64,000 nucleotides of DNA from Sphaerodactylus townsendi (taxonomy: Eukaryota). The stretch is from assembly GCF_021028975.2 (NCBI RefSeq), contig NC_059425.1, forward strand, positions 29,698,001 to 29,762,000. Reading direction: 5' to 3'. Below the pieces are notes generated by a model, which worked only from the letters and a program-made list of their open reading frames with translations, was not told the DNA's origin and did no database searches. The position numbers and the translations under genes were made by a program. Below, piece by piece: positions 8,396 through 53,337 of this stretch (position 1 is the first letter of the stretch; each line of letters opens with the position of its first letter).

Positions 8396-11300
8396 ATGGA
8401 AGCAGAACTTGCCTTAAAGACCCCCAGCAAACAATCTGAGAGAAAGAAAGCAGGTGAGTCTGTACTTAGTCTTGTGTGAGTCCAGTTTTTGAAAACAGAG
8501 GAGGAGGGATAGAGGAAAGCTGGATGATGATGATAATAATAAAATAATTTTCTGCAGGTTTGGAATTGAGGGAGAAGCTAGCGTAAGTCTTATGCTCAAA
8601 GTACCCCTTCTTTATTTACAGACAGAAACTGGGGAGTTTTGAATGCTCCTTTTTTCCTCTGTAAACATCTGTCCAGGTGTCAGTTAATGCTAGTGAATGG
8701 GAGCTCAAGGAAGCAAATGGGACAACTCACAAGAGGTTATTTCCTAGATCCTGCCCCTTCCATTTCTTGGCAGAATGCAACTTATCCCTGAAATCAGGCT
8801 CTATCCCTGAAGACTGGAAGATGGCCAATGTCACACCAATTTTTAAGAAAGGATCTAGGGGGGACCCGGGAAATTACAGGCCAGTCAGTTTGACATCTGT
8901 TCCTGGTAAATTAGTAGAATCTATCATTAAAGATAAAATTATTAAACATGTAGAAAAGCAAGACCTGCTGAGAAAGAGTCAGCATGGCTTTTGCAGAGGC
9001 AAATCCTGTCTTACAAACTTACTAGAGTTCTTTGAGAGTGTAAACAGGCATGTGGACATTGTCTACTTGGATTTCCAAAAGGCTTTTGACAAAGTTCCTC
9101 ACCAGAGACTGTTGAGAAACCTCAGCAATGAAGGAATAAGAGGGGAAGTCCTCCTATGGATTAAAAACTGGTTGAGAAACAGGAAGCAAAGAGTGGGTGT
9201 AAATGGGAAGTTCTCACAATGGAGAGATGTAGGGAGTGGTGTCCCCCAAGGATCCATTTGGGGACCAGTGCTCTTTAACCTATCTCATAAATGACCTGCG
9301 GAAGTAGGGGTGGGTGGCGTGGTGGCTAAGGTCTGCAGATGATACCAAATTATGTAGAGATTGGTGAGAACCTGAATAAAGCGATTGCGGCGAGCTCCAG
9401 CTAGACCTTGATATGGAATTAGGGTGAGTGGGCTAAGAAATGGGAAATACAAGGTTCTATGTAGCAAAATGCAAGGAAGTGATACACATAGGGGCAAAAA
9501 ATCCAAACTTCACATACAAGCTACAAGGGTCAGTGCTATCAGGGGTCACAGACCAGGAAAGGGATTTGGGCGTCTTAGTTGATAGTTCAGCATGGGAATG
9601 TCCAACTCAATGCATGGCAGCTGTGAAAAGGCAAGAAACTCTATGCTGGGGATCATTAGAAAAGGAATTGAGAATAAAACTGCAAAGATTGTCCATTGCC
9701 CTTATATAAAGCAGTGGTGCGACTGCACTTGGAGTACTATGTCCAGTTCTGGTGGCCCGCATTCTCAAAAGGATATTGAGGAGATAGAAAAAAAGGGTGC
9801 AGAGAGAAGGAGCCAACGAGGATGATTGAGGGACTGGAGCACCTTCCTTATGAGGAGAGAGGCTGCAGATTTGGGACTCTTTAGTTTGGAGAGGAGATGG
9901 ATCCTGAGGGGGGGATATGATTGAAGTCCTACAAAATTATGCATGGGGTAGAAAAATGTTGACAGAGAGAAATTTTTCTCACTTTCTCACAATACTAGAA
10001 CCAGGGGGCCATTCATTGAAAAATGCTGGGGAAAGAATTAGGACTAATAAAAGGAAACACTTCTTCACGCAACGTGTGATTGGTGTTTGGAATATGCTGC
10101 CACAGGAGGTGGTGATGGCCACTAACCTGGATAGTTTTAAAAGGGGCTTGGACAGATTTATGGAGGAGAAGTCGATTTATGGCTACCAATCTTGATCCTC
10201 TTTGATCTGAGATTGCAAATGCCTTAGCAGACCAGGTGATCGGGAGCAACAGCCGCAGAAGGCCATTGCATTCACATCCTGCATGTAAGCTCCCAAAGGC
10301 ACCTGATGGGCCACTGCGAGTAGCAGAGAGCTGGACTAGATGGACTCTGGTCTGATCCAGCTGGCTTGTTCTTATGTTCTTATGTTCTAAAGACAATCCC
10401 ATTGAAATAATACAGAGCAGCAGCTGCTTCCCTTGAGGGGACAGATGCCTTTTGGACGTCTGCGCAGCTAGAGACTGCTCACTAGTCGCTAACCCAAAAG
10501 AGTTCAGTCACTGGGTGAACAAACAACCAGATTTGCCCTGGGAGGAAGAGGAGGAAAGTAAACACTTCCTTTTCCTGTGGGCACCTTCAACATGCAGGCT
10601 TTTAGAAGTTGTAGTTCTTTGTGATTAGAGAAAAATGAAAGTTTTATAGGATGTTTTGATGTTTTAAGGAAGCAGGAGCACCATTTTAGGGGAAACAAGC
10701 ATGCTGAATATTTCTTCAGATCCCAGCTGTGCTGAGAATTGGCACCACAAGATCTTAAAAAGGAAAACGTTTATGCTTCTGGATTTTTTTTTAACATGGT
10801 GTGGGGAGAAGGAATTAGACCTCTTCCATGCCCCAGGAGGACTATAGAGGGATTCCTCGCCCACCTCCCTCCCTCCCTCCCTCCCTCCCTCCCTCCCTCC
10901 ACACACACTCTTTCTAAGGCAGCAGAAACCAAGTGAAGGGCACGGCTGGAGGCAGCTGCATCAGAGACTGCTTGCTCCTAGTGAAGGAGTGAGGGGGGTT
11001 GACCCCAAGCTACCCAGATCCACTCTAACCATACCTTCTTGGCTCTGTTTGACAGTGGAATTCACTACCTCGGAGTGTGGTGGAATCTCCTTCTTTGGAG
11101 GTTTTTAAACAGAGACTGGATGGCCATCTGTCAGGAATACTTTGATGTGTTCCTGCATTGAAGGGGATTGGACTTGATAGCCCTTGTGTTCTCTTCCAGC
11201 TCTGTGATTCTAAGAATTTAGAGATGGCACTGTGTAACTACTAAAGGATTTCTCTGCCTTTTTTCTTTGTCCAATATAGGACCAGTTAATTCACCATTAA

Positions 11301-17300: not shown

Positions 17301-20300
17301 TTCAAGATTTCTAGGAACCAAGACTGGGATGTCTATCTAGTATTCAGCTGCCAATCACTTTTGTTTTCTGTTAAGCCTCCTAAAGCTGTATAGAGGGGAG
17401 AAGCGGAGGCTTGGATGCATGAGTGGAATCCTTTTGCTTTGGTTTTGTGGCCTTTCCAACGTCCTACCTCACCAATAGGAAGGGAAGGGGCAGCAGGATG
17501 AGGCAGAGTGGTTTTCCTTATTGGTACCTTAGATACAATGTTAAGTAACTTTAGGTGACTGCCTTAAAAAACAACAACAAAGTACAAAATCCTGTCCATC
17601 TGATGGGGTTTCTGTGCAGTGTAAATTATTCAGATGAAACAAGAGTGGTGCAAGTGTCTGAATTCCCTCTTCCCCCAATTATGCTTATCTACCTCCACCT
17701 TCTCATTCAAGCATCTGAAGTTTCACCAGCACATTTTCAAGCCTCACTTCCAAGCAGGGGGACGTGGGTGGGGTATAACAGCATTACTGAATAGAGGGCA
17801 TTTAGCTGCTTATGCGTCTCTTGTTTCATCTGTAGAACTTTATTTATTCTATTTGTATCCTGCCCCTTCCTGATGAGTCGGGCTCAGAGTGGCTTACAAC
17901 AATTTAAAATGACATATATAAACAATTAAATTCCTTATTAAGTAAAACATGAGCATAATGGTGCCCTAAAAATACAAACATGGGAAGGCTGTTCAGAGGA
18001 GAAAGGAAGAAATAGTTAATCACAGATGAGGCATAATAAAATAGAACTTCAGCAATAAAATAAATAAATAAAAGGGTCCCAGAAAAAAGAAGGGAAGGTA
18101 AGCTACCTATACTCTTTTCCACCAAAAGATAACAGTAGAATTTTATATTAATCTGCCATTTCCTGGATCTTTGTTCTAGAATGCTCCACTTGGGTCCTAG
18201 TGCCTACCTAGTTCAGTTCCCAAGGCACTAGGACCCAAGCAGAGCATTCTAAAACAACGTAGGTCCAGGAAATGGCAGATTAATATACAATTCTACTGTC
18301 ATCTTTTGGTGGAAAAAAGTATAGCAGAAACTATTGCTGCCTTCAACCATATGTCTGGCAGAACTTCTCTGCTTTACAGGCCCTGTGGAATTGCATCAGG
18401 TTCTGCAGGGCCCAAGTCTCACTGGCTTCCGCAGATGGCTCTGCATTTCACTTGAATGCTGTTTTCCACACAGTGAGTGACCCAGATGCCCACTATATTG
18501 GCACTGAGCCCTGGAAACCAAAGGAAGTTCTGGAGGAAGATGGCATCATCACCGACAAGGCTGACATCTTTGCATTCGGGCTGACTCTGTGGGAAATGAT
18601 GACGCTTTCTGTACCTCACCTTAACCTTCCTGAAGATGATGAAGTATCAGATGAAGGTGTGCTTGACGGGGGTTTCCTCTTGGTCTGACTCAGTAATGGC
18701 TTTCATGGCGCTTCTCCCTCTCTTGATGAGGTGGTTCAATAGAAGGTTACTGTATATACTCATAAATCAAATTTTTTGTGTTGAAAAAGCCCCCCTCGAG
18801 TTATACGCGAGTGAGGTGTATTTTAAAAAATATTTTAGGGTTTTTACTTCACAGCCACCAGGGTGCAGTTTTGTTAAGACCAGAACTCATGTTTCCAGAT
18901 AGCTCAGGGACCACCCATCAGCCCCTGCCAGCATGGCCAATTGGCCTTGCTGAAAGGGGCTGATGGGAATTGTAGTTCCTGAACATCTGGAGAGCCGCAG
19001 GTTCCCTACCCCTGGGCTAGCAGCACCAAAATTTCAGGGTATCATCAGGTGACACTCCTGATGATATCAGCCAGGTTTGGTGAAGTTTGGTTCATGGGGT
19101 CCAAATTTATGGACCCCCAAAAGGGGGTGCCCCATCCCCCATTGTTTCCAATGGGAGCTAGTAGTAGATGGGGCTACATTTTGAGGGTTCATAACTTTGG
19201 ACCCCCTGAACCAAACTTCACCAAACCTGGGTGGTATCATCAGGAGGGTCTCCTAAAGATACTCTGAAATGTTGGTACTGCTAACATAAACATTTATTCC
19301 CTGACAGGTACCCTCAATTTTCCCCCAGATTCTCCCTTTAAATCCACTCAGAAGGGGGGGGGGTGATTTAAAGGGAGAATCAGGCTTACAGAGCTAGTTT
19401 ACTGTTTTTCTTTGAAATGAATATTCAAAAACATTTAACCTACTGATGCCTCAATCAATGTAATTTTATTGTTATCTATTTTTATTTTTGAAATTTACCA
19501 GTAGCTGCTGCATTTCCCACCCTCGGCTTACGCATGAGTCAACAAGTTTTCCCAGTTTTTTGTGGTAAAATTAGGTGCCTTGACTTATATGCAGGTCGAC
19601 TTATACACGAGTATAAACGGTAATTTGTTTATGGTCTTGGGCAGGATGGGGAAGAGCCTCTAACTCAGTCACTTTAGGCATGGGGCTGGGACCAAACATG
19701 TTCCAGTAAAAAAGGGATTAACAAAGAATTTGTTGAAAAGAAGGCAGTTACACTTTTAACATAAAAATGGCCATTAGCTCTAAGCTCTAGGCTTCACTGA
19801 GTTAGTAAAAATGGTGCTCAGAGTGACTGCTTTGTACCCCTCTTAGAATTACTTGGTCTCCTTGTACACCCGTGCATGCACAGAGTCTGATGTATGTGGG
19901 ATGAAATGGAGAGAAAGATAAAGGTCCCCTGTGCAAGCAGTCAGTCACCTATGTCACCTATGGGGTGACATCACAACCCAATGTTTACTAGGCTGACTAC
20001 TTTTATGGGTGGTTTGTCATTCCCTTCCCCAGTCTTCTACACTTTACCCCCCAGCAAGCTGGGTTCTCATTTTACTTACCTTGGAAAGCTGAGTCAACCT
20101 TGAGCCGGCTAGAGACCATCTACTTATTCCAGCTTGAGACTGGCCTTTTAGAATATGACTCCCTCCTATTGACCCAGTTTTAATATCTTTTCAGATGCTT
20201 CTTTTGATGAGGATGACTTTGATGAATCTGCGTATTATGAGGCTCTTGGGACACGGCCACCGCTCAATGTGGAAGAGCTGGGCCCGCTATATCAAAATGT

Positions 20301-24959: not shown

Positions 24960-26541
24960 TTGGGGGGGAAGAGAACGCCAAGCGCCACCCCATGATTTGT
25001 GAGGTGCTGCAAGGGGCGATCCTCTCTCAAATGTTTATTAACATCTGCATGCACCCCCTAACTGGATTGGTCTGGAGTTTTGGGCTGAGGTGTCTTCAAT
25101 GTGCGGATAACACCCAGCTCGTGTTCATGATGGTGGGCTGCCCGTCCTTGGCCCCAGGGCTCTCCAGCGTGGTTAAGGGGCTGTGTCTGTCTGTCTGTCC
25201 CTTTCTGCACGAGCAATTTACAGCAGCCCAGGGATGGCAAAAACGCCATCCCTTGGCAGCTGTTCGCACAGGCAGCGCTGCTGCAACGCAGCAGCACCGT
25301 CCTGTGCGGCCCAGAGCGGCGTGAAGGCGCCGCTTTCCACCTCCCTTCCCAAGGGAGTTTTTGGAAGGAGCCGCTTTCCCGTCCACCCCCCCCCCTCACC
25401 TCATCCTCTAGTGTCGGTCTGGAGGGCTGCTGAGACCCGCCCACGCTGCCCTCTGACGCTGGAGGAAGAGGTGAGTGGGGGGGACACAGAAGAGGCAACT
25501 CCATGCAGAGCCGCCTCTTCTGTGCTGGCCTCTGCGGGGGCCGCTCCCCCGGCATAATTTCTGCCGGTGGAGAGGCGCCCTTTCCGCTGTGCGGAAAGGG
25601 CCTCTGATTGAGAGCGAGCTGACTGAAGCTAAATCCAGTGGAGGTTCTGTGGGTGGGTCAGGAGGAGAGACCGGTTGCCTTTTGCCTGCCCTCACTGGAT
25701 GGCGAGGCCTTGTAGTTGGCCTCGTCTGTCAGAAGCCTGGGGGTGACCTTGGACTCAGCTTTGTCGCTGGAGGCCCAGGTTGCCAAGACAATCCAAGTGG
25801 CTTTTTACCATCTGCGACAGGCATGGCAACTGGCTCCGTATCTCTCTCGTTCCAACCTGGCCACAGTAATCTATGCAATGGTTACCTCCAGACTGAATTA
25901 TTGTAACTTGCTATATGCTGGCCTTCCTTTGTTTGTGATCCAGAAATTAAAACTTGTCCAACATGCAGCAGCCAGGCTTCTTTCTGGAACGTCAAGTGGA
26001 GACCGGATCACTTCGGTCCTATACCAACTCCATTGGCTGCCGATCAAGTACCAGATCATATTCAAAATGTTAGTGTTAACCTTTAAGGCTGTGAGCAGTC
26101 TTCGACATGCATACCTAAGGGACCGCCTTTCCCTGTATTGCCCCCTAGATCCCTCCGTTCATCGGAGGAAATTTACTGGAGATCTCTGGCCCGAAGGATG
26201 TCCGGCTCGCTTCCACAAGGGCCAGGGCCTTTTGAGCCCTGGCCCCTATCTGGTGGAATAAGCTCCCTAGTGAGATCAGTGCCCTGTGGGACTTGAATGA
26301 GTTCCGCAGGGCCTGTAAGACAGAGCTTTTCCACCAGGCATTTCCATCTAGCCAGCTGGTCTGACCATGAATATCATTGGCTTCCCACAGGTGCAGTAGA
26401 AAAGGGGAGGGATTGTTTGCCATCTATGGTTGGTTTTGCTGTTTTTAATTACTTGTTTTTATTTGTACTGGATTTTGTGTTGTTGCTGCCCTGAGCCCTG
26501 CTGGGGAGGGCAGAATATAAATATATAAAATAAAAATAAAT
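24960..26541 (+). mobile_element. Degenerate L2 LINE interrupted by a Harbinger-type MITE
   Basis: Decayed RT motifs (QGAILS, CADNTQL), SVRSLGVTLDS...VTSRLNYCNLLYAGLP...LHWLP, and an (AATAAA)-rich L2 tail. Confidence 0.85.
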
Positions 26542-38878: not shown

Positions 38879-39280
38879 CTCAGAGAGAAAAAGAAGTCGC
38901 GAAAAGGCCGGATCCCGCGCCAACCGCCTCAGTCGACGCCTGCCTGTCTTGCTCGCACCTTTCGAATCTCCGCCGCGCGCGCGAGAAGAGCCTCGTTTGC
39001 TCCTATTGGTCGATGTTGTGATTGTTTCCGGAGGTTCTAAACTGCCATTGGGTGCGTTAATAGCCAATGATAGTTTTCTTATGCCAAGCTCAAGGAAAAA
39101 TAAGAAACCCGCCCTAACTAACTTTGGACCAATAGAGCGTGCCGTTTTTTGTGTCAACAAAGGCTATTAGCCAATGAAATAATTGGGCGGTTGCTGGGCA
39201 AGGCTCTCCCTGTACAATCTGAAAATGAGGAGAGAGAAGAGAGAGAATTGCGCAGTTTTCTGGGAAGTGTAGTTTTTAGA
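38879..39280 (-). promoter_or_regulatory. ESCO2: ESCO2 CpG-island promoter and non-coding exon 1
   Basis: Minus-strand donor AG|GTAATT at 38879/38878, CHR-type TTCGAA at 38961-38966 beside a GC-rich CDE/E2F-like run, about six CCAAT/ATTGG boxes in both orientations (39004-39186), and a ZNF143/THAP11-type motif ACTACACTTCCCAGAA (minus, 39258-39273). Confidence 0.8.
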
Positions 39281-39506: not shown

Positions 39507-42500
39507 CACGTGTGTCAAACTCAAGGCCTTTGGGCCACATCTGGCGAGATGGCGGCAGCCACAGAATGTGCGGAGTTGCAGCCTAAGCTGCCTCCATTGG
39601 GACATGCAGTCACAATCTCCCGCCTGCAGGTTAGACAACAGGGAGGTGAGCTCAGAGCTGCCACTTGCCTCAATGGGAGTGAGGAAGGGAACTTTGCAGA
39701 ATTTCTGTGCCAAGAAATGTGGACAAACTGAAGTTTGCGAGGGAATATCTGCCCGGGAGCCCTTGAGCCCTATCTTTATCCCTGAATCCGTCTTCTGTGA
39801 CTTTTTGTGCTTCATCTCTTGCTGGAGGTTGAGGGGGGAGGGGAGAAACCCGGAAAACACCTTCAGAAGGGAGAAGAGGAGAAACCTTGGGGTGGGGGAG
39901 AGAAAAGGGTGGGGGGAGCCATGCCTTAATATGTATGTGGAATGTGGGGGGGGGGGAACAGGAAGGGATTTTGCATGTTGAGAATTGGAATTTGGAGAAG
40001 TTTCAGGAGTGAGCAAATTCACCAGAGGGCTGGAAAAATACAGCTTGTGGTTTGGGTGTTATTTTTTTTTTTTGCAAGGCTGCCTTTTTGCAGCTGCAGG
40101 CTTTCAACGCTGCCTCCTTTGGCTGGCCCTCCCCATGCCACCCTCCCCCCCAATTCAGGACAAGATTTTTTGTTCATGATTCCCCCCAATCCACCCCCTT
40201 GCAAAAAGGAGGTCTGCAGCCTTATTAATGCAAAAGCAAAAAGTGCGCGCCTTTGCAAAATGCATGGGAAACTCGGGGGTCCCACACAGGTGCAAGAAGC
40301 TGGAAAGAAGACAAGCCTGGGGTTTTTTTGGGGGTGATGGGAAAGTGGAGAGAAATGGCCGCAGGAGGGGGCGGTGGGCGCATAGTGTTGACTTTTGAAT
40401 GCCTGGCGCATTCAAGGATCCCCCCTTCCAGCTGGTAAGGATTTGTTTCCTGTGATTTGCAAATGACCCTGGAGCAGCAGCAGTGGTGGCATGCATGCAA
40501 GCAAGGTGGTTGGGGGTAGAGGCTTTCGGCACTTTGGGGTTAATAGAGCCCACCCCTCCCCTCATTTCCAAATGACCCCATTGCAGGTTTTTTTTTTGCA
40601 AGGCTCCCCACTCTTCTTGTAATGTATTGCCAGCTTTTTACCCTGGGGAGGGGAGGTTCCAGATCTCCTCCATGTGAGGGTAGGGGAAATGCCAGGTACT
40701 CCTCTGCTGGGTTCGTTCTTTCTTTCTTTCCCCACAGTAAGCCCCCAACCCACAACAAGGCCTCCCCCCTCCTCCCAACCCCAGCAACCCACCCTGGCCC
40801 AGGGATCCGAGCGAAAGGGAGGGAGCCGCGCTGCTCTCTGGCGGCAGCTGCTGCAGAAGGAGACGCCGCAGCCGCGGCATGTTTACTCAGTCACTGAACC
40901 CACCCCAATAAAAATCTATACCTATGTGCTTGCTTTTCAAATAGGCTACCTGCGATCATTCCTGCGTCAAGTTCGTCAGATCAAGCATCTGTTGACGTAT
41001 ACAACCCTAATTTCAAATCAAAGCTAGCCCCTAACAATGGCCAAGAGAAAAGCTGATTCTGAAAACATTTGCGGAGGTAATGTGCCTGTAATTAAGGAGT
41101 ATAATCTAAGACAGCACTACAAGACAAAACATCAGGACAAGTTTAAAAACCTGGATGCAAAGCAGAAACTACAGAAGGCTGAAGAGTTGAAGAGGAATCT
41201 GACATCCCAGCAGACCGAAGTGAAATCACAAAGTGAAGCTGCTATGAAAGCAAGTTTTATTGTGGCAGAGAAGATTGCCAAATCAGGACGGCCATTTAGT
41301 GAGGGAGAGTTTCTGAAGAACTGCATGATGAAAGCGTGGGACATCATGTGTCCAGATATAAAACAGGCGTTTGCAAATGTAAGCCTTAGCACAAATACGA
41401 TTGCTGATCGGGCTTGTGAGATGGCCACTGATTTGAAAACACAGTTGCTTGAAAGAGGGAAAGACTTTGTTGCATACTCCCTTGCTGTGGATGAAAGTAC
41501 TGACACTGCACAGCTGGCCATCTTCATCCGTGGAGTGGACTCCAGTTTGTGCGTTACTGAGGAAATATTGGACATTAAATCGATGCATGGGACAATGGAA
41601 GGAAAAGACATCTTTGAAAACGTATATCAAAGTGTAACCGACATGAAACTGCCTTGGGACAAACTTGTTGGACTTACAACAGATGGAGCACCAGCGATGT
41701 GCAGTGAAAAAAGTGGACTAGTGGGAAGGATGCGCTTAAAGATGCGGGAGGAGAACTGTGCTGGTGAGTTGACAGTATATCACTGCATCATACACCAAGA
41801 AGCACTGAGTGGTAAAGTCCTAAAAATGGATCATGTGATGAACACTGTAACACAAACAGTAAATTTAATCAGAGCCCAAGGTTTAAATCACTGCCAATTT
41901 CAATCTTTTCTGCGGGAAATAGATTCAGAGTTTGGCGACATGCCTTATCATACGCAGGTGCGGTGGCTAAGTCAGGGGAAAGTTCTCAATAGACTTTTTG
42001 AGCTGGTCGAGGAAATCTGTCAGTTCATGGACAGTAAAGGAAAAGACTCCACAGTTCTGCGGGATGAAAAGTGGAAATGCGAGTTGGCATTTCTGGCTGA
42101 TATAACTACGCATCTCAGCGTCTTAAACCTTCAGCTCCAGGGACAGGAGCGCATGATAACTGATATGTATGATGCAGTGAAGGCATTTCAAGTAAAGCTG
42201 TGCTTATGGGAGACACAAATGCACCAATGCAACTTGTCTCACTTTCCCTGTTGCCAGGTAATGTTGAACCAAGTTAGCGCCACAGTGTTCCCAAATGCTC
42301 ACTTTGCTGATAAACTGAGCGCACTTCGCACTGAGTTCACATGGCGCTTTGCTGATTTGGAAGCACAGAAAAGTAATTTTGAACTGCTTCGCAACCCATT
42401 TGCTGTCGATGTGGAAACTGCACCAGTAGAAATTCAGATGGAGCTGATAGAGCTGCAGTGTAACGGAACGCTGAAGGCAAAGTACGACAGTGTGGGGCCT

Positions 42501-43025
42501 GCACAGTTCATTCGCTTCATTCCTGAAGTGATGCCCCAGCTCCGTCAACATGCGGCTCGAACCCTGAGTTTGTTTGACAGCACATACCTATGTGAGCAGC
42601 TGTACTCTGTGATAAAAATTAACAAAACCTCGCACAGGAGTCATCTCACTGATGAACACCTTCAGTCCATCCTGAGAATCTCCACAACACAGAACCTAAC
42701 CCCAAACATAAACGAACTTGTTGCCAAGAAGAGATGCCAAGCATCAAACTCTGATAAAATGGCATCAGAGCACAAATAATGTAATGTTTTGATTTGTTAT
42801 GATGTAACTTTTACTTTAAAGCACCATTTTTATGAAGAGCAAAATATTTCAAGTTTAAGTTTATGTTGCAATGATATTGTATCCTGTGTTTCAATGTATA
42901 TTAATGTTCAAAATGTTCAGTTTTAGTCTGTTTAATAAATGTTTATCCTGTTTGGCCTGTTTGGCCTGCAACCTAAAGTGTGCTTTGAGTTTTGGCCCCC
43001 TGTGCCATTGAGTTTGACACCCCTG
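39507..43025 (+). mobile_element. Full-length hAT (Charlie/Buster-type) DNA transposon, 3519 bp
   Basis: Left TIR CACGTGTGTCAAACTC (39507) and right TIR GAGTTTGACACCCCTG (ends 43025), 14/16 match. Flanking 8-bp TSD AGTTAAAT (39499-39506) / AGTTAAAC (43026-43033). Encloses a transposase ORF and AATAAA at 42934-42939. Confidence 0.93.
41037..42779 (+). CDS. hAT transposase, GTF2IRD2/EPM2AIP1-like family, 580 aa open ORF
   Basis: Single ORF with good Kozak context (acaATGG). Motifs AVDEST (D1), TTDGAPAM (D2), HCIIHQE (CxxH), VRWLS, STYLCEQ (E), and a C-terminal dimerisation region RSHLTDEHLQSILRI. The N-terminal BED finger is partial. Confidence 0.9.
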   Translation: MAKRKADSENICGGNVPVIKEYNLRQHYKTKHQDKFKNLDAKQKLQKAEELKRNLTSQQTEVKSQSEAAMKASFIVAEKIAKSGRPFSEGEFLKNCMMKAWDIMCPDIKQAFANVSLSTNTIADRACEMATDLKTQLLERGKDFVAYSLAVDESTDTAQLAIFIRGVDSSLCVTEEILDIKSMHGTMEGKDIFENVYQSVTDMKLPWDKLVGLTTDGAPAMCSEKSGLVGRMRLKMREENCAGELTVYHCIIHQEALSGKVLKMDHVMNTVTQTVNLIRAQGLNHCQFQSFLREIDSEFGDMPYHTQVRWLSQGKVLNRLFELVEEICQFMDSKGKDSTVLRDEKWKCELAFLADITTHLSVLNLQLQGQERMITDMYDAVKAFQVKLCLWETQMHQCNLSHFPCCQVMLNQVSATVFPNAHFADKLSALRTEFTWRFADLEAQKSNFELLRNPFAVDVETAPVEIQMELIELQCNGTLKAKYDSVGPAQFIRFIPEVMPQLRQHAARTLSLFDSTYLCEQLYSVIKINKTSHRSHLTDEHLQSILRISTTQNLTPNINELVAKKRCQASNSDKMASEHK

Positions 43026-43168: not shown

Positions 43169-45113
43169 CTTAAAATGCATATGATTAATAGCATGACTTT
43201 CTGTTTCTTCCTTTTTGAGCTCAGTCCCATCGATTTTTTAACTGCTTTTTTAATTTGGTTATTTATAACGCACCTTTCTCTCTGAGACATAAGGCAGGTT
43301 ACATAGTGTATGTTATATACAATCAACAAGATGGGAAATCCAAGGAACAGTGTAATAGGATTCAGATTACAGAAATCTGAAAACAAAACCGAAATGTCAA
43401 CAAAGCAGAAACAAAGCATTAGCTTGTAAACACGGTATTTTAAGTGGTGTAGAAACTACCTAGTGTAACTTTACAGCAATAGGCAGCAACACTTGGTTGA
43501 CACTTTAATTGAGCTGTCCGCTATGACCCCGAGGTCTCCTTCCCTTTCAGTTTCAGCAAGTTCAGACCCCACTACTAAGTATTTAAAGATGGGAGGTTTT
43601 TTTTGTTTCAATCTACATCATCATTTAACATGAGCTTTTATGGAAAGCAGCCTGCCCTCCTCAGAGCATGGAAGCTAAGAAGACTGAGGTTGCTGTGTTG
43701 AGGAAGGCAGACAACCTTGTGAGATCCAACGTGGTGTAGTGGTTAAGTGCAGCACCCTTTAATCTGGAGAACCAGGTTTGATTCCCCTATTCTTTCATAT
43801 GAAGCCTGCTGGCTGATCTTGGACCAGTCACCATTCTCTCAAAGCTCTCTCAGCCCTACCTACCTTACAAAGTGCCTGTTGTAAAATCAGGAAGAGAAAG
43901 TGTTTCTGTGCCCTTTTGAGACTCCTTAAAGGAGAAAAAAACAGTATAAAAACCTCTTCTGCTCCTTCACCTCTGCTTGTGTCTTGTCTGGAATGCCCTA
44001 TGGACGAGCTCATCTTGAGTCAGTTGTGACTTTATGGTGCATTCTTCTACTTACTGTTGAAATGCATTATCTCCTGACTCACCTATATCTCAAATGCAAA
44101 AAGCACAGGGTGATACTTTTTAAAATTCAAACCAAGTAAAGAAAAAAGGCCATTTGCTTGTCATTATAGGCCAGTTAACACCAATAATGGCAGGCAGACT
44201 CCAGTTTTTGCTAACAGAATATGTGTAGAGCCTGAGAAAGCCCAGTTGCAGGGAGGTAGCATGAAAGCTTCTATCCTTTCCTAACCCCTGTTTAGCTGTT
44301 CAAGTGCCCATCTTGAAACTCCACACTTCCTTTCCATATCACGCCATCCATACATGGCACCTATGATGCCATGATACCAGCAGTCACTTTTCTTGCTGCC
44401 TGCCAACAGTTTTGGGAAAGTAGGCAGGGCCAGATCAGGCTCTTGTCCATCAGGCCTTCTGACTGGCCATTGGCCATTCTATCTGACTGGCCATTGGCTA
44501 TGCAGAAGTTTAGGAAGTTGCTTTGGCAGCAGCTACCACCACAGCACAAGAATCTTCCCTGTATGACTGCAGATAAGTTGTGTATGCAAGAAAATATTTT
44601 CAAACATGTTCATCTTAAAAGGTATCCTGTTATACAGAGCTTCTGCTTCAAATGCTGAAGAGTTACTATTAGATGCGAACCTCACTTCCTGAGATTTTTG
44701 TGGTTGGCGTTGCCTCTTGGGGCAGCCATTTTGAGGCTGTGCCCACCATCCAGTGTCGGAATTCTAAAGGTGCCCACAGACTCAGAAAGGCTGGGGACCA
44801 CTGTGCTAAGCAACGTTGACCAAGCAATGTTTACTAAGCAGTGTTTACGTCCTATGCCCATTGACTTCAAAAGGGTTGAGGAAGGTGCACCTCTAAGAAT
44901 GGAAGCTTCTCTGGCCTCCATCTTCCTCCATATCTCCACCCAGCCTTCTTCCCTGCTTGACTCTGATTTATCCCTTTCCTTGGGGTGACATTTTGAAACT
45001 TTCAAACCTTCCTGAAGGAGCTGGGAGGACCCCCACCCCACACACACTCTAATTCATAGCACAAATTGACCATCCCCTTCAGACTAATGACAGTGACGTT
45101 AGAGTTCAACCTA

Positions 45114-45119
45114 TTTATT
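45114..45119 (-). terminator. PolyA signal of the C2orf16-like gene
   Basis: AATAAA about 120 nt after the stop codon, followed by GT-rich sequence on the minus strand. Confidence 0.6.
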
Positions 45120-45241
45120 TGCACCCTGGGAAAAAAAGACAACACAGACCTGCTGTGTCCCAGCAGTGAAGGTGGATATCACAGAGCAATAAACCCTGGC
45201 AGGAGAAAGTGCCCCAACAATGAGCACGCCAGGCATTCTAG

Positions 45242-47756
45242 TCAGTCTGGGTGTCTGGCAATTTTGCTAGTGCTTTTCTTGGAGGGAGTCCTCTTCAGCA
45301 AACTGGGGGATTTCCTTGGTGTCCCAGGGGAAGTCGATTTTTTAGTGCTACTGGTCCCTTTCTGGGAGACCTTAGGTGAATCTGGTTCTTTAAAGCTCAG
45401 GGATGGCCTCCTGCGGTCTGTGGGGGACGTCTGCTTGGTGAAAGAAGCACGTTTGAGTATAGGAGGAGTGGCTGATTTGAGGGGAGAAACCTTTTGTGTG
45501 CTGGGGGACAAAGGAGAGACTTTTGAAATGGCTCCTTTCTTTTGGACCTCAGAGGTGGAGGACTTAAGTGAAAGAAGAGCCCCTGGTTCTTTCCGGGGCT
45601 GAGGGGAAACACGGGCAAATTGGGGAGAGTCTGGTTTCTTGGAGGGAGAGCTTTTCTTAGGGCAGAACTTCTCGGGGCACTTATTTCGCACCTTGGCCCA
45701 AATATTCTTGATGGTGGAGAGCAGCTGTTTCAGAATGGAGTGGGGCTTCTCGGGTGTTTTCGGATGGACTTTCTTTGGAGGTGGTGGGGACGGCTTTGCA
45801 GATACCGGAGATGGCCTTGCAGATAGTGGGGGTGGCCTTGCAGATCGTGGTTGGAACTGTGTTTTAGTAGTTTGTGCACTTGCAGGTGCTGGGGTAGTTG
45901 CAGCAACCCGTGCAACCTGTTGAGCAGCCACTGGATTTCTGGTCTTCCGGTTACCTCTCTCTGGGAGATGCTCCCTAGCAACATGAGGTGTCTTATCTGG
46001 GATTTTGGGACCTTGGGGTCTTGGTCCAGCTGCGCGGCCTTGGCTCTTTCTATGTGGAGTGGTGCGCTTACTCTTCTCTCTCTTTGAGGGACGTTCTTTG
46101 TCACAGGGTTTCTTGAGCACATCTGTTCCTTGTGTCAACCCCCACATGTCAGCTTCAGACCTCTTGATCTTAAGGAGGAAGCCGAGGGTCATATACGCAT
46201 TACCATCCTGCACATCCAGCCGTGGGTAGACAAGGAGGCAGGGGCTGTGCCGCATACGCGGGTGGGGGCAATATGGGGTGCAACGGCCACATAGCAGGCA
46301 CAGCGGATACTCCACGCTTGGTTGGCTGGACCCCATCTCCAGCCCTTTGGCCAGGTGCATTTTCAGGTCCTGCATTGCTTGCTCAGAGTCCAAAGACTGT
46401 ATGATGGTGTGGGCCAAGCACTGGGGCTTAGGAGTTCTAGCAGCGGGACGTGTACTGAGTTGTGCAAATGGGTAGCTTTTCTGGTTCTGTTCTTCTCGTG
46501 CTGCAGCAATGCAGGGCAACTCCAGTTGGTTCTGGCACATAAATGAAGGGTCCAGGAACTTCGGTTGCGTAGTAGCAGGTTGCGCCCAGGTCAGACTTGG
46601 TTTCTGAAATTCAGGCATGTTACTCCAACTCAAGGTGTGCATTGTCTGGTCTGTTCTCAAGCCGGCCTTGACCTCTCCTTGCTTGTCCTTGGGGCTGCCA
46701 GCTCTTCCCACCCTGCCAAGATCCTCCTTGGGAGACCCAGGTCTCCTGCCAGGGCTGTGACTATCCTTCTTTTTTTCCTTGGGGGTCTCGAGTCTTCCAG
46801 ATTCTCTTGGTGTGGAACTCTGCCCAAACACGGTGATCAGTTCTGTCAGTTCCTCCTTGGGGATCTGGCTGTTCAACGTGACTTCTACAGATTCATGAGC
46901 ATTGCTGTGATGTTGATCTTTCTTTTTTTCCTTAAGGGTCTCGGGTATTCCAGATTCTCTCAGTGTGGGGCTCTTCCTTTGCCCTAACACGGTGAGCACT
47001 TCTGCCAGTTCCTCCTTGGGGGTCCTGCTACTCACCTTGACTTCCACAGATCCATGGCCATCGCGGTGGCTTTCTTCCTTGCAGATGAGCGTGACGGGAG
47101 GAGGCAAGTCTTCTGAAGGAGAAGGAACAGGTATCATCGGCCGTGCAAAGAGCCCTGGGCTTGGTGGGCGAGGGGACTTGGGTGGTGTATGACGTCTGAT
47201 GCTTTGAGGAGGTGTGTGGCTGTGTGGCCGCTGATCTAGAAGTGACTGCTGGGTCATCCCATGCACCATCCCATCTGCCTGAGTTCTGTCATTCCCAGTA
47301 TGTGCCACTTCCTCCTCCTGACGTTTCTTCTGAATATGCCAGTTGAGCAACTCCTGCTCCTTGTAGCTCAGGACCCTAGCCGTCCTACTCTGCATATCGG
47401 GATTGGTCCTGTTGGTTGCTGGATGCCATTTAGGGGCTGAGGAGATCAGTCTGGTCAGAGACTCAGAGTGGGGTGTCGGTCCTCCCTGCTGCTCCTCCAG
47501 TTGCTTCTGACGTATGTTGAAATCGACCTTGCGATGAGACAGGGCCTGTAGGCGGACCTTCTGGAACCCAGCCCCGGGGGGTCTGATGAGATGTTGCTTT
47601 TGCTCCCTGCACTGAACATCATTTCCCAGGGTATCAGGTACTGGGGGAGATGGTGTTCTAGATTGGCCACCTGCTGATGAATGGACCCAACTGTAGAGTG
47701 AAACAGCAGTTTCCACAGAGGCATTGGATGTAGATGAGTATGCAGTCCTAGACAGT
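45242..47756 (-). CDS. Large terminal exon of a C2orf16/SPATA31H1-like, basic Ser/Pro-rich protein
   Basis: 2.5-kb open frame with no TE hallmarks. Polypyrimidine tract with acceptor ccccAAG| at 47757 (alternative at 47748). Motif EYPLCLLCGRCTPYCPHP..SPCLLVYPRL...G...LGFLLKIKR resembles the C2orf16 block YPVCLQCGRC...PYLLIYPQL...LGFRLRIGKR as I recall it. SPATA31-like motifs VDFNIRQKQLE and LNWHIQKKRQ. AATAAA at 45119-45114. Confidence 0.8.
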
Positions 47757-48059
47757 CTTGGGGAGGAGGGAGATAAAGTCAAAGAAAAGGCAATTCAGGA
47801 CACTCCCTGTGGGTTCACCCCAACTGCAAGCCTAAGAGAAGGTAATCCCAATTGATTAAAAATTGGGCTTACTCCAAAGTACATTTGCTTAGGATTGCTC
47901 TCCAAGTAGCCCAGCATCCTAGACTCCTAATTTGTTCAGGATTCCACATGTGCTGTGATTCTATGGGAGCACAAAAAAAAAGGTGCAAACGATGACAACA
48001 AAACCAAACTATCTTAATCTGTCAACCTATTGTTCCCATCATATCTGAACAGTCTACTC

Positions 48060-48138
48060 CAGGGGTAGGGAACCTGCGGCTCTCCAGATGTTCAGGAACT
48101 ACAATTCCCATCAGCCTCTGTCAGCATGGCCAATTGGA
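48060..48138. mobile_element. Half copy of the palindromic hAT MITE
   Basis: One arm of the 29272 element up to the central GGCCAATTGG. Another partial copy lies at 18890-19014. Confidence 0.8.
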
Positions 48139-48427
48139 CCAGTGCGGGAAGACACAATCGAAGCGTCCAGCCTCTTCTTTAAAACCTCCAAAAAAGGAGA
48201 CTTCACCACATTTCAAAACAGTGTATTCCACTGTTGAACAGTTGTTACTGTCAGGAAGTTCTTTCTAATGTTTAGGTGGAATCTCTTTTCCTGCACCTTA
48301 ATGATCCAGGATAATCAGCTCATATTTCCTCAATGGGAGCTATCAGCTGAGGATGTTTTTTGAAAGGGTATTTCTACCTTCAAGATGTAGTTTGGGTGTG
48401 GGGGAGCAGTTTGGGAATACGGAGGTA

Positions 48428-48740
48428 AGAAGAAGAAGAAGAGTTTGGATTTATATCCCCCCTTTCTCTCCTGTAGGAGACTCAAAGGGGCTTACAATCT
48501 CCTTGCCCGTCCCCCCTCACAACAAACACCCTGTGAGGTGGGCAGGGCTGAGAGAGCTCCGAGAAACTGTGACTAGCCCAAGGTCACCCAGTTGGCGTGT
48601 GTGGGAGTGTACAGGCTAATCTGAATTCCCCAGATAAGCCTCCACAACTCAAGTGGCAGAGCTGGGAATCAAACCTGGTTCCTCCAGATCAGAGTGCACC
48701 TGCTCTTAGCCACTGTTCTTAGTCACTACGCCACTGCTGC
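48428..48740 (-). mobile_element. tRNA-derived SINE
   Basis: Near-identical to the 4238-4520 copy, with a (TCT)n tail. Confidence 0.8.
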
Positions 48741-49431
48741 TCCTGCAGCAGGTTGAAAAGAGGATCCTTAGAGAGGGGACCTTCCAGTTTGCTTTTGGGA
48801 AAACAGAAGATGTTTAAAGATCCATGCTGTCTGGGTACCGGTCTGCTCTTCTATGCTCAAAAGTGCACATTTGTAAACTGAGGTGCGTTCATATATGCGC
48901 TGACCTAGCTGCAAGTATATCTGTTATTCTGTCAATTGCATTTCTAGTGCCTGCCTCAGCATGGAGGTAGAGATGGTTGTGATTTGGCTTTGATGCAGTG
49001 CTTGTCCTTGGAGATACTCAGAAAGCAGCAAAGGAATTGCACTCTGTTTCTGAAGCTTAGCATAACTGTGGTGGGGATAAGTTCCTGCCACTGATAACCT
49101 GTTCAAGTTACTCACAGTGCCAATCCAAGCAGAGTTTTTATGTTTTTATTCCATTTCTATACTATAGCAGCAGCTTCTTGGTATCCCAACTTAAAAGCTG
49201 CAGGACTGGGAAAGAGTCTGCTGTAGAACCTGGAAAGCTGTTGCTGGTGAGAACAGACAATTTTGGCCTATGGGTGGACCAACTGTCAAGTCTACTTGTT
49301 ATTTTTGCTTATGTTACCACTAATTTACTGCTGGCCTGGTGCTGAGGAGCTTGGGATTTGGCAGGCTAGTCCCCCTGCATAGATCCTGATCCTCTGACAT
49401 GCTGTAGTAGTAGGGCTGCCAACCTCAATCT

Positions 49432-49574
49432 TAGGTGTCAAACTCAGGCCCGCCAGATGTTCATGGATTACAATTCCCAGCAGCCCCTGCTAACATGGCC
49501 AATTGGCCATGCTGGCATGGGCTGATGGGAATCATAGTCCATGAACACCTGGAGGGCCAGAGTTTGACACCTGT
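49432..49574. mobile_element. Palindromic hAT MITE (same family as 29272)
   Basis: AGGTGTCAAACTC...GAGTTTGACACCT ends with the same internal TACAATTCCCA / GGCCAATTGGCC core. Confidence 0.8.
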
Positions 49575-49660
49575 CATCCATAGTGAAAATGGGGTAGGCT
49601 GCTCAAAGGTTAACAATCCAAACAAGCACCTGTATGGCTAATGGTATTATCGTACCAATA

Positions 49661-50164
49661 TTTCTAATATTCAGCAAACATTTAAACCATTATAAATGAG
49701 CTTTTATACTGTGTTAAACTTAACAACACAAACAATACCTACACAGGCTTATTGCTGTGCGATCATTTATACAAAGAAACTTTGAGCTTTGAATAGAAGG
49801 TATTGAGACCAGAGCGGAGTAACAGGCCAGAGTCTCTATCCTGGAGAGTCAGTTCTTATATAGCAGAGCAAAAAAGATTTTTTGTAGCCTTTTTGGAAAA
49901 GGATTTTTTTTTTAATTACAAGATAACGCACCTCTGTGAAGGTTTCATGAAGTAATTCAACAACTGGGGAATGACAGCCAATGTGCATATTTTTCATGTT
50001 AATTTGTTGTTGTGATGCCTTTGTAGAGGGACTATTTGGTTTAAGTTTCTTTGTATAAATGATCACACAATAATAAGCCTGTGTAGATACTGTTTATGTT
50101 GTTAAGTTTAACACAGTATAAAAGCTTATTTATAATTACTTACTTGTCTATTAAATATTAGAAA
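49661..50164. repeat. AT-rich inverted repeat, ~120-bp arms with ~260-bp spacer
   Basis: AGCTTTTATACTGTGTTAAACTTAACAACA...ATCATTTATACAAAGAAACTT mirrored by AAGTTTCTTTGTATAAATGATC...TGTTGTTAAGTTTAACACAGTATAAAAGCT. Confidence 0.8.
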
Positions 50165-50930
50165 CCTCTAGGTTATAGCTAGAGATTTCCTGGCATTACA
50201 ACTGATCTCTAGGGGACTGAGATCAGTTCACCTAGAGAAAACGGCTGCTTTGGAAGGTAGATTCTCTATAGCATTATACCCTACTGAAGTCCCTCCCCTT
50301 CTCAAGCTCTGCCTTTCTCAGGCTTCATCCTTCAAATTTCCAGGTATTTCCCAATCTGGAGCTGTCATCCCTATGTGCCTTACGTGCCAGCGATGCGTTG
50401 CATTTGCCATGCAATGTACTGGATATTCCTGTCCAATGTACTCAGAGTGTACTTCAGATTCAGGTCCTCAGATGATCTAGCGAACATTTAAAAAGTGGAG
50501 TGTTAGGGTGCTGGCATTGTGTTGCCATACAGTGAGATTTTCTTTTGTTGTTTATCTCACCTCTGGCTGTTCTAAATTATTTTTCTCTTATTGCTATAGT
50601 AATCTCTCTTCCCCTCTCACTCACAAAAGTCCATTCAATTAAATGTCCCCAAATAAAATACAGTACAAATCAATAACATACAGTACAAATCAATAAGAAG
50701 TCTGTCAAAAGTCCATATCCCTCTTCCATCCCATTTATCAATCCAACTCAAAGGCTCTCTAAAAAGGCCAGTCTCAAAAACTGACTGGAAAAGCCTTTGG
50801 AAAACAGCCATTCTCTCCTGTGAGGAGACTCAAGACAGCTTACAAACTCCTTTCCCTTCCTCTTCCCACACAAGATTGTGATTGTGAGGTAGGAGGAACG
50901 GAGAGCGTTCTGAGAGAACTTTGACTAGCC

Positions 50931-51068
50931 CAGGGGTCTGCAACCTGTGGCTCTCCAGATGTTCATGGACTACAATTCCCATCAGCCCCTGCCAGCTTGG
51001 CCAAGTGGCAGGGCTGATGGGAATTGTACTCCATGAACATCTGGAGTGCCACGGGTTGCAGACCCCTG
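50931..51068. mobile_element. Palindromic hAT MITE nested in a SINE
   Basis: TIRs CAGGGGTCTGCAACC with an exact TSD GACTAGCC, splitting the SINE at about 50810-51228. Confidence 0.9.
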
Positions 51069-51524
51069 GACTAGCCCAAGGTCACTCAACAGGAATGTAG
51101 GAAAGGGGAAACAAATCCAGTTCACCAGTTAAGAATTCGCCAGATAAGAATGTGGAGGAGTGGGAAATGAAACCCATTTTTCCAGATTAGAGTCCATCTG
51201 CTTGTAACTACTACACCATGCTGGCTCTCAAAAGAAAAAGCCCCAGGATCTGGCATTCCCAGTGCAAGAATCTAAGTAACAGGCATAGGGCGGGGTGGGG
51301 CAGTGGGGAGGACTTGGTCTGAGTGGCTGATGTTGGGTGTTCTTTTTTTTAAAGGAAGGGCCAGACTGACCCTCAATGTATTTATTTTGCTTCTTTTTTT
51401 AGAGGCTGCAGAGAAGGGTTGAAGGAAGGTATGTTTTATATGTGGGTCTTATTTAAGTTTTATAGCTCAAGAGCTTGATCTAAAAACAGGTCTGAAAGAA
51501 AGGAAGGGCTTTGGAGTGGCTCAC

Positions 51525-51723
51525 CTCTCTGGGTCTGTGGCTTCGTCCCTTGTCCCTTGCAAAGATGCTGTAAATGAAAGACAAGAAAGTCACATGAGCC
51601 AAGTTAAGTGTAGAGAGCAGCATCTCGCCATCTGTTGAGCCAAAAAGGAAGAAATTTGGCCATATCTGGCTGCTTACTTAAGCATGGTGTCAAGTACTTT
51701 GATTTCTTCTTGGAACCAGGAGC
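51525..51723 (-). CDS. Two candidate upstream micro-exons of the C2orf16-like gene (51723-51678, 46 nt; 51567-51525, 43 nt)
   Basis: Both have strong pyrimidine tracts with AG acceptors and GTAAGC/GTGAGC donors. Phases 0>1>2 join in frame to the 47756 exon, giving APGSKKKSKYLTPCL-TSLQGTRDEATDPE-RLSRTAY. Confidence 0.55.
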
Positions 51724-53337
51724 CTGTCAGAAAACCGAACAAAAAGAATTAGAAAATGTCTTATGTAAAGAGAGCAGAACTTCATATCCTGATTGTTTGT
51801 TTACTTGCTTACTGCATCTGTTTATAACCTGCCTTTATAACCTGTCTAATCTAAAGCCTGCCTCTTACCCTGAATTTTTTAATTGTTTGGATGGTCCAGT
51901 GGGTGGTGATCAGAAACAAAGGGACCAGTAGTAAGTCGCAAATGCTTGGGGTGTTATTTAGCAGACACGCCAGCATGATCCTGGAGCCACGTTGGAATAA
52001 CAGCAGCTGCTCAGACAACCACCAGGCTGGGAAATCTCAGGGCTCCCCCGCTGAGGTCATGCCTACATCACAAATGTCTTTTGCAGCCCACCCTGACTTG
52101 ACTGCCAGGCCTTCCCTTATCCCTGGCTAGCTGCACATTTGTCCCCCAGCCTGTCCAGCTGGAGCTCATATAAGTGCTTAGAACCTCAAATGAGAGAATG
52201 TGGTGTTCAGATCAAGCCTGTACACTCCCTGATCAAGAAGACTCCTAAATTTAGTGAAGAGAAAGGCAGAGAGACATCTTTATCTTTTTGCTTGTTCCTG
52301 GCCATGAACATTTATCCCAGTGGACAATTAATACCTCCTCTGGGCTGTTTCACATGAGGAAAACACTTCCAGAGAAGGCTGAAGGCTGTTCTACTTGTGT
52401 ACCACAGTCCCAAAATGTACAGCTGCCAACTTCTGGGGGGCCTGGTTGACCTGCAGTCTGCAGAGATCAGTTCCTTTGGAAGAGGTTGCTTTGGAGGGTG
52501 CACTCTATGGCATTATAACCTGGTGAAGTTTCTCCCATCCCCAAACACTGCCCTCTCAAGGTTTCAGCACCAAATCTCCTGGATTTTTTCCAACCTGGAG
52601 CTGGCAACCCAAATCTTAGCCTATTCACAGCTGAGAGCCCTAGAACAATGTCAGTTGGGGGATAGGACAGGACATGGACTTTGCAGCCTGCAAACTGGCC
52701 ATTGGATTAACAAAATGAGTACTCCAGAACATCCCATCATCTCAAGAATTAACATCTTGGAGAGAAGGAGGGGGAGAATGCAGCAATTATCCTTATATTC
52801 CTAGTTTGCTTTTCAGAAATTGTCTCCCAGAGTGATTCGTGTCAGTAAAGGCAGTCATATAATTAGAATGTACAGACAATTGGGCCCACCAAACTGATGT
52901 TCCCTCACGGTCTTGTTTCGATGGAACAGATGGAATTATTCTAAGGCCCTTATTCTCCTGGTTCGTACCAAAGGTGAGCATGTCCTTGTCTACATTGTCT
53001 ACTCAGAAATTCTAAAAAGTCAGCGGGTAAACCTTTTAATCTCAAGGATCAAACCACTGGAGCCTTCTAACAGTCATCATTAAAGCTGTTTTTAAATGGG
53101 TGCATGAAAACAATTTATACAGGCTTTTGTATCAACCAAGGCCTACACAGGGATTATGCTCCTGATAATAAAAAATGGTGGTGGTGGTGGTGGGGGGGCA
53201 TTGTTTTTGTACCTTTGACTAGCCACTGTGTAATCCCTTTAAGAGTTCCTGCATAAATATTCCACCAATGGATAAAATGTGCAGTCCAGTTTCACTGTCT
53301 TCTTATGAAATAGATAATAGCTTCAAAACATCTAAGG

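What the first reader, a model, noticed from the sequence alone, without database searches (positions are those of the whole stretch)
45114..51723. Unannotated-looking C2orf16/SPATA31H1-like gene inserted between ESCO2 and CCDC25
Seen: an open ~838-codon terminal exon with acceptor and polyA signal, plus two phase-compatible micro-exons 3.8 kb upstream. The protein is mostly disordered, basic and Ser/Pro-rich, with one conserved-looking core, EYPLCLLCGRCTPYCPHP...PCLLVYPRL...LGFLLKIKR (a possible CxxCxxC...CxH metal-binding module), then KPHSILKQLLSTIKNIW and a histone-H1-like SP/K tail. Recalled knowledge: human C2orf16 (SPATA31H1) has a matching YPVCLQCGRC...PYLLIYPQL...LGFRLRIGKR block and an SP-repeat tail, but lies on 2p23, and human ESCO2 and CCDC25 have no gene between them. 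Inference: this is a relocated or lineage-specific, probably testis-expressed member of a fast-evolving sperm gene family, and its Cys core may be an undescribed domain.
Basis: partly seen in the sequence, partly recalled or inferred. Interest (0 to 1): 0.75.

Follow-up and report, generated by a model that had tools for sequence, protein, structure and literature searches.

The report
Reptile PRR30/SPATA31H1-family sperm gene
This is a real, already gene-called lizard member of the family that includes the mammalian sperm genes PRR30 and C2orf16/SPATA31H1; it is likely a membrane-anchored spermatid protein, and its small cysteine domain, shared by both mammalian genes, is predicted to bind a metal and matches no solved structure we searched.

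Summary
The gene is real but neither unannotated nor lineage-specific. The 838-codon terminal exon, both micro-exons and the polyA signal are confirmed. One run behaves as spliced RNA and supports 50384>47756. Orthologues are on record in 12 named squamates, and turtle and alligator relatives are named PRR30. The Cys core passes the Pfam cut-off for DUF4679 (PRR30 family) and also reaches mammalian C2orf16/SPATA31H1. Turtle and alligator proteins carry both this core and the SPATA31 (FAM75) domain, so they tie PRR30 to the SPATA31 family; we found no paper saying so. The core folds confidently (pLDDT 81) with no PDB match. Its ferredoxin-like Cys spacing occurs only in squamates and is probably coincidence; zinc binding is likelier but untested. 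Which mammalian gene is the orthologue is unresolved. Relocation is not shown: human 8p and part of chromosome 2 were linked ancestrally. Testis expression is inferred from relatives only. Verdict: new member of a known family, with a modest, testable by-product.

The parts
51869..51976 (-).
   Evidence: tblastn to Paroedura N-terminus 62% id, E 4e-10; 19-residue hydropathy 1.57 here, 2.4-2.9 in snake and lacertid orthologues. Not seen joined to exon 2 in run X4
51678..51723 (-). Exon 2, 46 nt, basic residues after the anchor
   Evidence: AG/GT ends; tblastn; X4 bin depth 1.35 observed, 1.35 expected for this exon alone
51525..51567 (-). Exon 3, 43 nt
   Evidence: AG/GT ends; tblastn 79% id; X4 bin depth 1.89 observed and expected
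50384..50476 (-).
   Evidence: tblastn 84% id, E 1.5e-13; X4 contig 29 matches exactly these 93 nt at record positions 31-123 of 344
45242..47756 (-). Exon 5 coding part, 837 codons plus stop
   Evidence: X4 contig 25 spans 45110-47756 and stops at the acceptor, while X1-X3 contigs run through to 48081
47309..47551 (-). One degenerate SPATA31-type repeat unit (exon-5 aa 69-149)
   Evidence: BLASTP to Emydura unit 1 E 1.7e-13, and to second units overlapping or adjoining the FAM75-matching stretch in two turtles and alligator E 2e-3, 2e-6, 5e-4; no direct FAM75 hit
46766..47083 (-). Internal duplication of about 50 residues, not in the 15 orthologues aligned
   Evidence: alignment A1
46511..46555 (-). 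Short squamate-conserved block with two invariant Cys upstream of the core
   Evidence: invariant columns 401-415 in A1; low pLDDT
46133..46429 (-). DUF4679 (PRR30-family) core, about 100 aa: two helices, strand, Cys loop, beta hairpin, helix
   Evidence: Pfam PF15728 45.5 bits, E 7e-12; model pLDDT 81, pTM 0.70
46262..46300 (-). Cys/His motif C-x2-C-x2-C-x3-C-P-H
   Evidence: sequence; Cys 1, 2 and 4 invariant in 22 of 22; census of 172 cores
45680..45742 (-). Predicted amphipathic helix, also seen in turtle and alligator relatives
   Evidence: helix 674-690, pLDDT about 70; profile hits E 7e-4, 4e-6, 3e-4
45114..45119 (-). Polyadenylation signal AATAAA
   Evidence: X4 contig ends at 45110

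Best explanation
This is a five-exon squamate gene of the PRR30 / C2orf16 (SPATA31H1) branch of the SPATA31 family, likely the orthologue of the turtle and alligator genes named PRR30, and it likely encodes a membrane-anchored spermatid scaffold protein whose one folded domain is predicted to bind zinc. Shown: exons, open frame, orthologues, the DUF4679 core, and splicing of exon 4 to exon 5 in one RNA-like run. Inferred steps: (1) exon 1 acts as a signal anchor and the lysines behind it put the long body in the cytoplasm (positive-inside rule, established knowledge); (2) expression in round spermatids and location at the acrosome or sperm head, by analogy with PRR30, FAM205A and SPATA31; (3) the Cys/His loop holds one Zn ion that stabilises a small protein-binding domain; (4) the Ser-Pro/Lys-rich spacers are disordered, phosphorylated linkers. 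Mammalian PRR30 and SPATA31H1 look like daughters of such a gene that each lost different parts.
For: 15 orthologues at 61-81% in the core, 12 named squamates and 3 unnamed. RNA-like contig ends at the polyA signal and acceptor. DUF4679 above cut-off for the window core, and hit by 9 of 9 cores. Squamate profile aligns to Emydura over 227 N-terminal columns, E 7e-22, besides the core and C-terminal helix. FAM75 above cut-off (24) in Emydura 41.6, Pelodiscus 49.9, alligator 42.0 bits. Hydrophobic N-terminus in 7 of 7 squamate A-type orthologues scored, 3 of 5 marsupial PRR30 models and 3 of 4 C2orf16 models, and in 0 of 3 placental PRR30. PRR30 is listed as a round-spermatid marker (PMC9713473, passage) and as a human sperm phosphoprotein (PMC12153847, table); C2orf16 is in bull sperm (PMC12128097, table); FAM205A is acrosomal, has a predicted helix at 11-31, and its knockout is infertile (PMC13423385, passages). 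Cys spacing between Cys 3 and 4 varies from 3 to 5, as a Zn loop would tolerate.
Against: No tissue or localisation data for this gene. Exon 1 is not in the spliced X4 contig: bin depth 1.35 against 2.61 expected, and 132 nt of that contig are unplaced, so an anchor-less isoform may dominate in that sample; the public call P0001 also starts inside exon 5. The gecko anchor is borderline (1.57). The gecko protein has no direct FAM75 hit. 97 of 172 cores (mammalian PRR30) lack Cys 3 and the His, leaving three ligands. The core tree groups squamates with C2orf16 and turtles/alligator with mammalian PRR30 (90/99, not starred), which is against simple squamate-turtle orthology. No metal binding was tested.
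Confidence: 0.6

Rival explanations
1. The gene is the true orthologue of mammalian C2orf16/SPATA31H1, and PRR30 is an older paralogue lost in squamates.
For: Core tree puts squamates with C2orf16 (90/99). C2orf16 keeps Cys 3 and mostly the His. The exon-4 block's best match falls at the equivalent N-terminal position in 6 of 6 C2orf16 proteins (0-6 of 100 shuffles as high; these are related, so about one observation) and in 0 of 5 mammalian PRR30.
Against: AU tests reject neither all sauropsids together (p 0.23) nor squamates with mammalian PRR30 (p 0.17). PRR30 aligns over both flanking helices of the core, C2orf16 less well. An HMM of the exon-4 block did not find C2orf16; the repeat-unit HMM found 0 of 25 mammalian or unnamed mammal-type proteins. 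Shared features may simply be ancestral.
Confidence: 0.25
2. The core binds an iron-sulfur cluster through its ferredoxin-like C-x2-C-x2-C-x3-C-P motif.
For: Weak Pfam Fer4-clan hits in all 9 cores (best E 5e-5); UniProt names several squamate records '4Fe-4S ferredoxin-type'; weak PDB sequence hits to Fe-S proteins, E 0.09-0.5.
Against: The window core's Fer4-clan hits are all below the curated cut-offs. The pattern is in 33 of 172 cores, all of the squamate type with a 3-residue spacer; turtles, alligator and C2orf16 have 4-5, and PRR30 lacks Cys 3. There is one motif only, and the predicted topology gave no ferredoxin among the top fold rows.
Confidence: 0.08
3. The cysteines bind no metal and serve for disulfide cross-linking or acylation during sperm maturation.
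For: Only three Cys are invariant, an incomplete Zn site in PRR30; sperm structural proteins are disulfide-cross-linked (recalled).
Against: C-x2-C plus a distal C-x-H in a loop of a folded, likely cytoplasmic domain is typical of Zn sites (established knowledge); 73 of 172 cores keep four Cys and the His.
Confidence: 0.15
4. The gene was inserted between ESCO2 and CCDC25 only in this gecko lineage.
For: Human ESCO2 and CCDC25 are head to head with no gene between (recalled); a transposase ORF lies in the same 18-kb interval; in Phrynocephalus the family member and ESCO2 are on different scaffolds.
Against: ESCO2 and a family member share a contig length in 3 of 4 species where both lengths were seen (Liasis, Erythrolamprus, Rhineura); in Rhineura an ESCO2 fragment and a family fragment also share a second, 31.7-Mb scaffold, as if duplicated together. 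The gene keeps its introns, so it is no retrocopy. HSA8p with part of HSA2 is reported as ancestral to mammals (PMC9550189, passage).
Confidence: 0.15

Closest known systems
Turtle and alligator proteins named PRR30 by NCBI (Emydura XP_067406660.1, Pelodiscus XP_075770675.1, Alligator XP_059583561.1)
   Same: Colinear N-terminal region, repeat unit, DUF4679-type core (44-51% id) and C-terminal helix
   Different: They keep 2-3 repeat units and pass FAM75; the gecko keeps one unit and does not. Cys 3-4 spacer is 4-5, not 3
Mammalian PRR30 (C2orf53; Pfam DUF4679, PF15728)
   Same: Core with both flanking helices, 28-37% id; passes the Pfam cut-off; some marsupial models keep a hydrophobic N-terminus
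   Different: Much shorter (about 400 aa in placentals), lacks Cys 3 and His, no repeat unit or exon-4 block found
Mammalian C2orf16 / SPATA31H1
   Same: Core 32-36% id with four Cys and mostly the His; hydrophobic N-terminus in opossum, possum and rabbit models; weak match to the exon-4 block
   Different: 2000-6000 aa with large repeat arrays; flanking helices of the core diverged; our unit profile does not detect it
SPATA31 / FAM205 family (FAM75 domain, PF14650)
   Same: Short 5' exons and one long last exon (exon 4 is the long coding exon in PMC5338094, passages); N-terminal predicted membrane helix in FAM205A
   Different: No direct FAM75 hit in the gecko protein; link is transitive through turtles and alligator; no SPATA31A-G or FAM205 protein appeared among the named core hits
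Bacterial-type 4Fe-4S ferredoxin motif (Pfam Fer4 clan)
   Same: Cys spacing in squamates
   Different: Below cut-off, single motif, spacing not conserved outside squamates, no fold match

Membership tests
PRR30 family (DUF4679) | Match to PF15728 above gathering score | tested here: met
   45.5 bits against 27 with the core alone; missed on the full-length exon and found in 1 of 16 full-length proteins
PRR30 family (DUF4679) | One-to-one orthology with mammalian PRR30 | tested here: inconclusive
   tree and AU tests
C2orf16 / SPATA31H1 | Significant similarity of the Cys core | tested here: met
C2orf16 / SPATA31H1 | One-to-one orthology | tested here: inconclusive
SPATA31 family | Direct FAM75 (PF14650) match in this protein | tested here: not met
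   no hit for exon 5 or its first 185 aa
SPATA31 family | FAM75 match in colinear relatives, with a homologous unit here | tested here: met
   3 of 4 turtle/crocodilian proteins scanned pass; unit homology
SPATA31 family | N-terminal hydrophobic segment on short exons before one long exon | tested here: inconclusive
   architecture present, but exon 1 was not seen joined in X4
SPATA31 family | Testis / spermatid expression | not testable with these tools
   tissue of run X4 is not on record
4Fe-4S ferredoxin-type domain | Fer4-clan match above cut-off and family-wide motif conservation | tested here: not met
4Fe-4S ferredoxin-type domain | Ferredoxin fold | tested here: inconclusive
   not listed in fold searches, which does not exclude it
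Zinc-binding domain | Four ligands coordinating Zn | not testable with these tools
   model coordinates not available; conservation only

The most novel reading that the evidence does not exclude
The shared PRR30/SPATA31H1 core is a new amniote-specific fold that in squamates binds a 4Fe-4S cluster through a convergently evolved ferredoxin motif, making it a redox-sensitive switch on a sperm membrane scaffold.
Probability: 0.07. Interest if true: 0.8.

Novelty: new member of a known kind. Interest (0 to 1): 0.35.

Why it matters
The gene itself is ordinary annotation. The by-product is useful: two human sperm genes of unknown function, PRR30 and SPATA31H1, share one roughly 100-residue folded domain, and reptile proteins that carry this domain together with FAM75 repeats place PRR30 in the SPATA31 family. 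HGNC renamed C2orf16 to SPATA31H1 on a Pfam-N match and that paper does not mention PRR30 (PMC12807706, passage). This defines a small construct that can be expressed and solved, extends the family to the amniote ancestor, and flags the UniProt '4Fe-4S ferredoxin-type' names on squamate records as likely wrong.

Tried and rejected
No whole genome is held, so gene order elsewhere could not be read and dN/dS was not computed. No RNA holder listed on record; X4 is treated as RNA only from its contig pattern, and intron repeats swamped the joint table. Fold searches: Foldseek best E 0.21, 0 with E under 0.001; VIA-align best Z 3.5, rmsd 4.8, 66 aligned, 0 of 48,161 at Z 5 or more; absence does not show a new fold. 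PDB sequence search: 7 hits at E 0.09-0.5. ESM Atlas: no usable hit for the core or human PRR30. Homodimer prediction with Zn: no answer. Rfam: 0 matches. A sigma-70 scan is irrelevant to a vertebrate. A CRE-like octamer at 52052-52059 is within chance (2 found, 3.6 expected). The acceptor 9 nt downstream (47747) would match Paroedura without a gap, but the X4 contig boundary supports 47756. No bird, amphibian or fish protein among the 20 of 40 profile hits looked up or the 120 of 186 listed, apart from one penguin record flagged as contamination; 66 rows were not shown. Left out of the tree: P0047 (repeat false positive), the self record P0001 and P0018, P0019, P0021, P0023, P0032, P0040, P0044, P0049 (fragments or near-copies). 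Literature: a search for chicken linkage of ESCO2/CCDC25 with SLC5A6/TCF23 gave 0 papers; searches listed no paper that, by title or abstract start, links PRR30 to SPATA31 or C2orf16 by homology or describes the reptile gene; only listings were seen for most, and subscription journals and supplements were not covered. Earlier-findings look-ups returned nothing.
Full report
OBSERVATION. The long minus-strand frame is real: 850 codons stop to stop at 47794-45242, far beyond chance. ESCO2 is confirmed by homologue search and tblastn and has its own CpG island at 38.5-39.0 kb; a second island at 56.5-57.0 kb precedes an ATG at 56810 that I name CCDC25 from recall. The gene lies between the two promoters. 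The closest orthologue is from the gecko Paroedura picta.

GENE MODEL. Orthologue N-termini laid on the window reveal two more exons: 51976-51869 with ATG and a hydrophobic stretch, and 50476-50384. Of four runs laid, three behave as DNA. X4 is not on record as RNA but its contig spans 45110-47756, from the polyA signal to the acceptor, at depth 15.7 against 2.8-4 for intron pieces; a second contig holds exactly exon 4 after a 30-nt overlap. Bin depths fit exons 2 and 3 in that contig, but not exon 1, and 132 nt stay unplaced. So 50384>47756 is supported, the exon 2-3-4 chain is inferred from depth, and exon 1 rests on homology alone. Tissue is unknown.

FAMILY. A search with the core returned 16 of 27 candidates: the window's own 717-aa public gene call, 12 named squamates and 3 unnamed. 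The core passes Pfam DUF4679, the PRR30 family. A squamate profile against 1.84 billion proteins gave 40 hits; of 20 looked up, they are further squamate copies, turtle and alligator 'PRR30', a second alligator protein, mammalian PRR30 and C2orf16/SPATA31H1. Core identity to the window is 61-86% for most squamate A copies (54% for two), 40-49% for a second squamate paralogue, 44-51% for turtle/alligator PRR30, 28-37% for mammalian PRR30 and 32-36% for C2orf16. Turtle and alligator proteins also pass FAM75, the SPATA31 domain, and the gecko keeps one homologous 80-residue unit that is repeated in iguanians and in the second paralogue. The squamate profile aligns with Emydura from the anchor through this unit. 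SPATA31 membership is thus transitive for the gecko; PRR30-family membership is direct.

ORTHOLOGY. A 31-row, 103-column tree separates squamates plus C2orf16 from turtles/alligator plus PRR30 at 90/99, unstarred, with long branches to both mammalian groups. AU tests reject neither alternative. Features are split: C2orf16 keeps four Cys, a hydrophobic N-terminus and a weak match to the exon-4 block; PRR30 keeps the helices flanking the core. A single ancestral gene with reciprocal losses in mammals fits this, but is inference.

THE CORE. AlphaFold2 with 22 sequences gives pLDDT 81, pTM 0.70: two helices, a short strand, the Cys loop, a beta hairpin and a helix. In the full exon-5 model the same elements appear at lower confidence and 687 of 837 residues are under 50. 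No solved structure matches. Three Cys are invariant. In 172 cores fetched, 97 (mammalian PRR30) lack the third Cys and the His, 75 keep the third Cys, and the ferredoxin pattern occurs in 33, all with the squamate 3-residue spacer. I read this as a Zn loop whose squamate spacing mimics a ferredoxin motif. No metal was tested.

POSITION. Gene order in other genomes could not be read. As a proxy, ESCO2 and a family member share contig length in 3 of 4 species; these are 200-430 Mb chromosomes, so this is weak, but the shared 31.7-Mb second scaffold in Rhineura is more specific. Human 8p with part of chromosome 2 is reported as an ancestral mammalian association (PMC9550189, passage). That human PRR30 and C2orf16 both lie on 2p23 is recalled. 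Relocation is therefore not shown; a move within one ancestral chromosome, in either lineage, is as likely.

MECHANISM. Most likely a spermatid protein anchored by its N-terminus, with a disordered basic body, short conserved helices and one Zn-stabilised domain acting as a scaffold at the acrosome or sperm head. This rests on relatives: PRR30 as round-spermatid marker, a non-obstructive-azoospermia hub gene (PMC11241133, passage) and mouse testis hub gene (PMC11036721, passage), and sperm phosphoprotein; C2orf16 in bull sperm; FAM205A acrosomal with infertile knockouts. A SPATA31H1 variant paper (PMC13348677, passages) has no occurrence of 'domain', 'PRR30' or 'cysteine'. For all papers I saw search listings and keyword passages only, no whole texts or supplements.

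VERDICT. New member of a known kind, already gene-called here and across sauropsids. Interest 0.35, for the link between PRR30 and the SPATA31 family and a small fold without a match.

Noticed in passing
window 41028-42779 (+): Open 583-codon frame resembling a hAT/GTF2IRD2-type transposase (recalled); only a weak Spin-doc zinc-finger hit, E 0.0075. It lies between the ESCO2 promoter and this gene.
   Followed up: partly
window 45243: Runs X3 and X4 carry a 2-nt insertion at the stop codon, which would extend the protein by two residues; likely an allele.
   Followed up: partly
P0014, P0112, P0113, P0019, P0091, P0114 (Rhineura floridana): Three near-identical copies of the gene on the ESCO2 chromosome, plus a gene fragment and an ESCO2 fragment on a second scaffold.
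   Followed up: partly
P0022 (Anolis), P0027, P0028: A second squamate paralogue (starred clade); the Anolis protein holds two tandem cores. Alligator also has a second, divergent copy (P0033/P0086).
   Followed up: partly
P0005, P0008-P0012 (snakes): Expanding 9-residue Trp-containing tandem repeat right after the repeat unit, varying in copy number between snakes.
   Followed up: no
P0016, P0018, P0023, P0053, P0116: UniProt names these '4Fe-4S ferredoxin-type domain-containing protein', probably from the motif alone.
   Followed up: yes
window 36645 and 38880-39100 (-): Likely true ESCO2 start codon on a short exon, and a promoter with CCAAT boxes and a CDE/CHR-like stretch (recalled motifs); the Euleptes model P0087 starts in what looks like intron sequence here.
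   Followed up: no
window 8665-9294 and 25716-26261 (+): Reverse-transcriptase-like fragments of LINE elements (recalled resemblance); kinase motifs of a PBK-like gene at 11336-18500.
   Followed up: no
P0160: A penguin PRR30 record flagged as unverified contamination is the only bird row among those shown; the family may be lost in birds.
   Followed up: no
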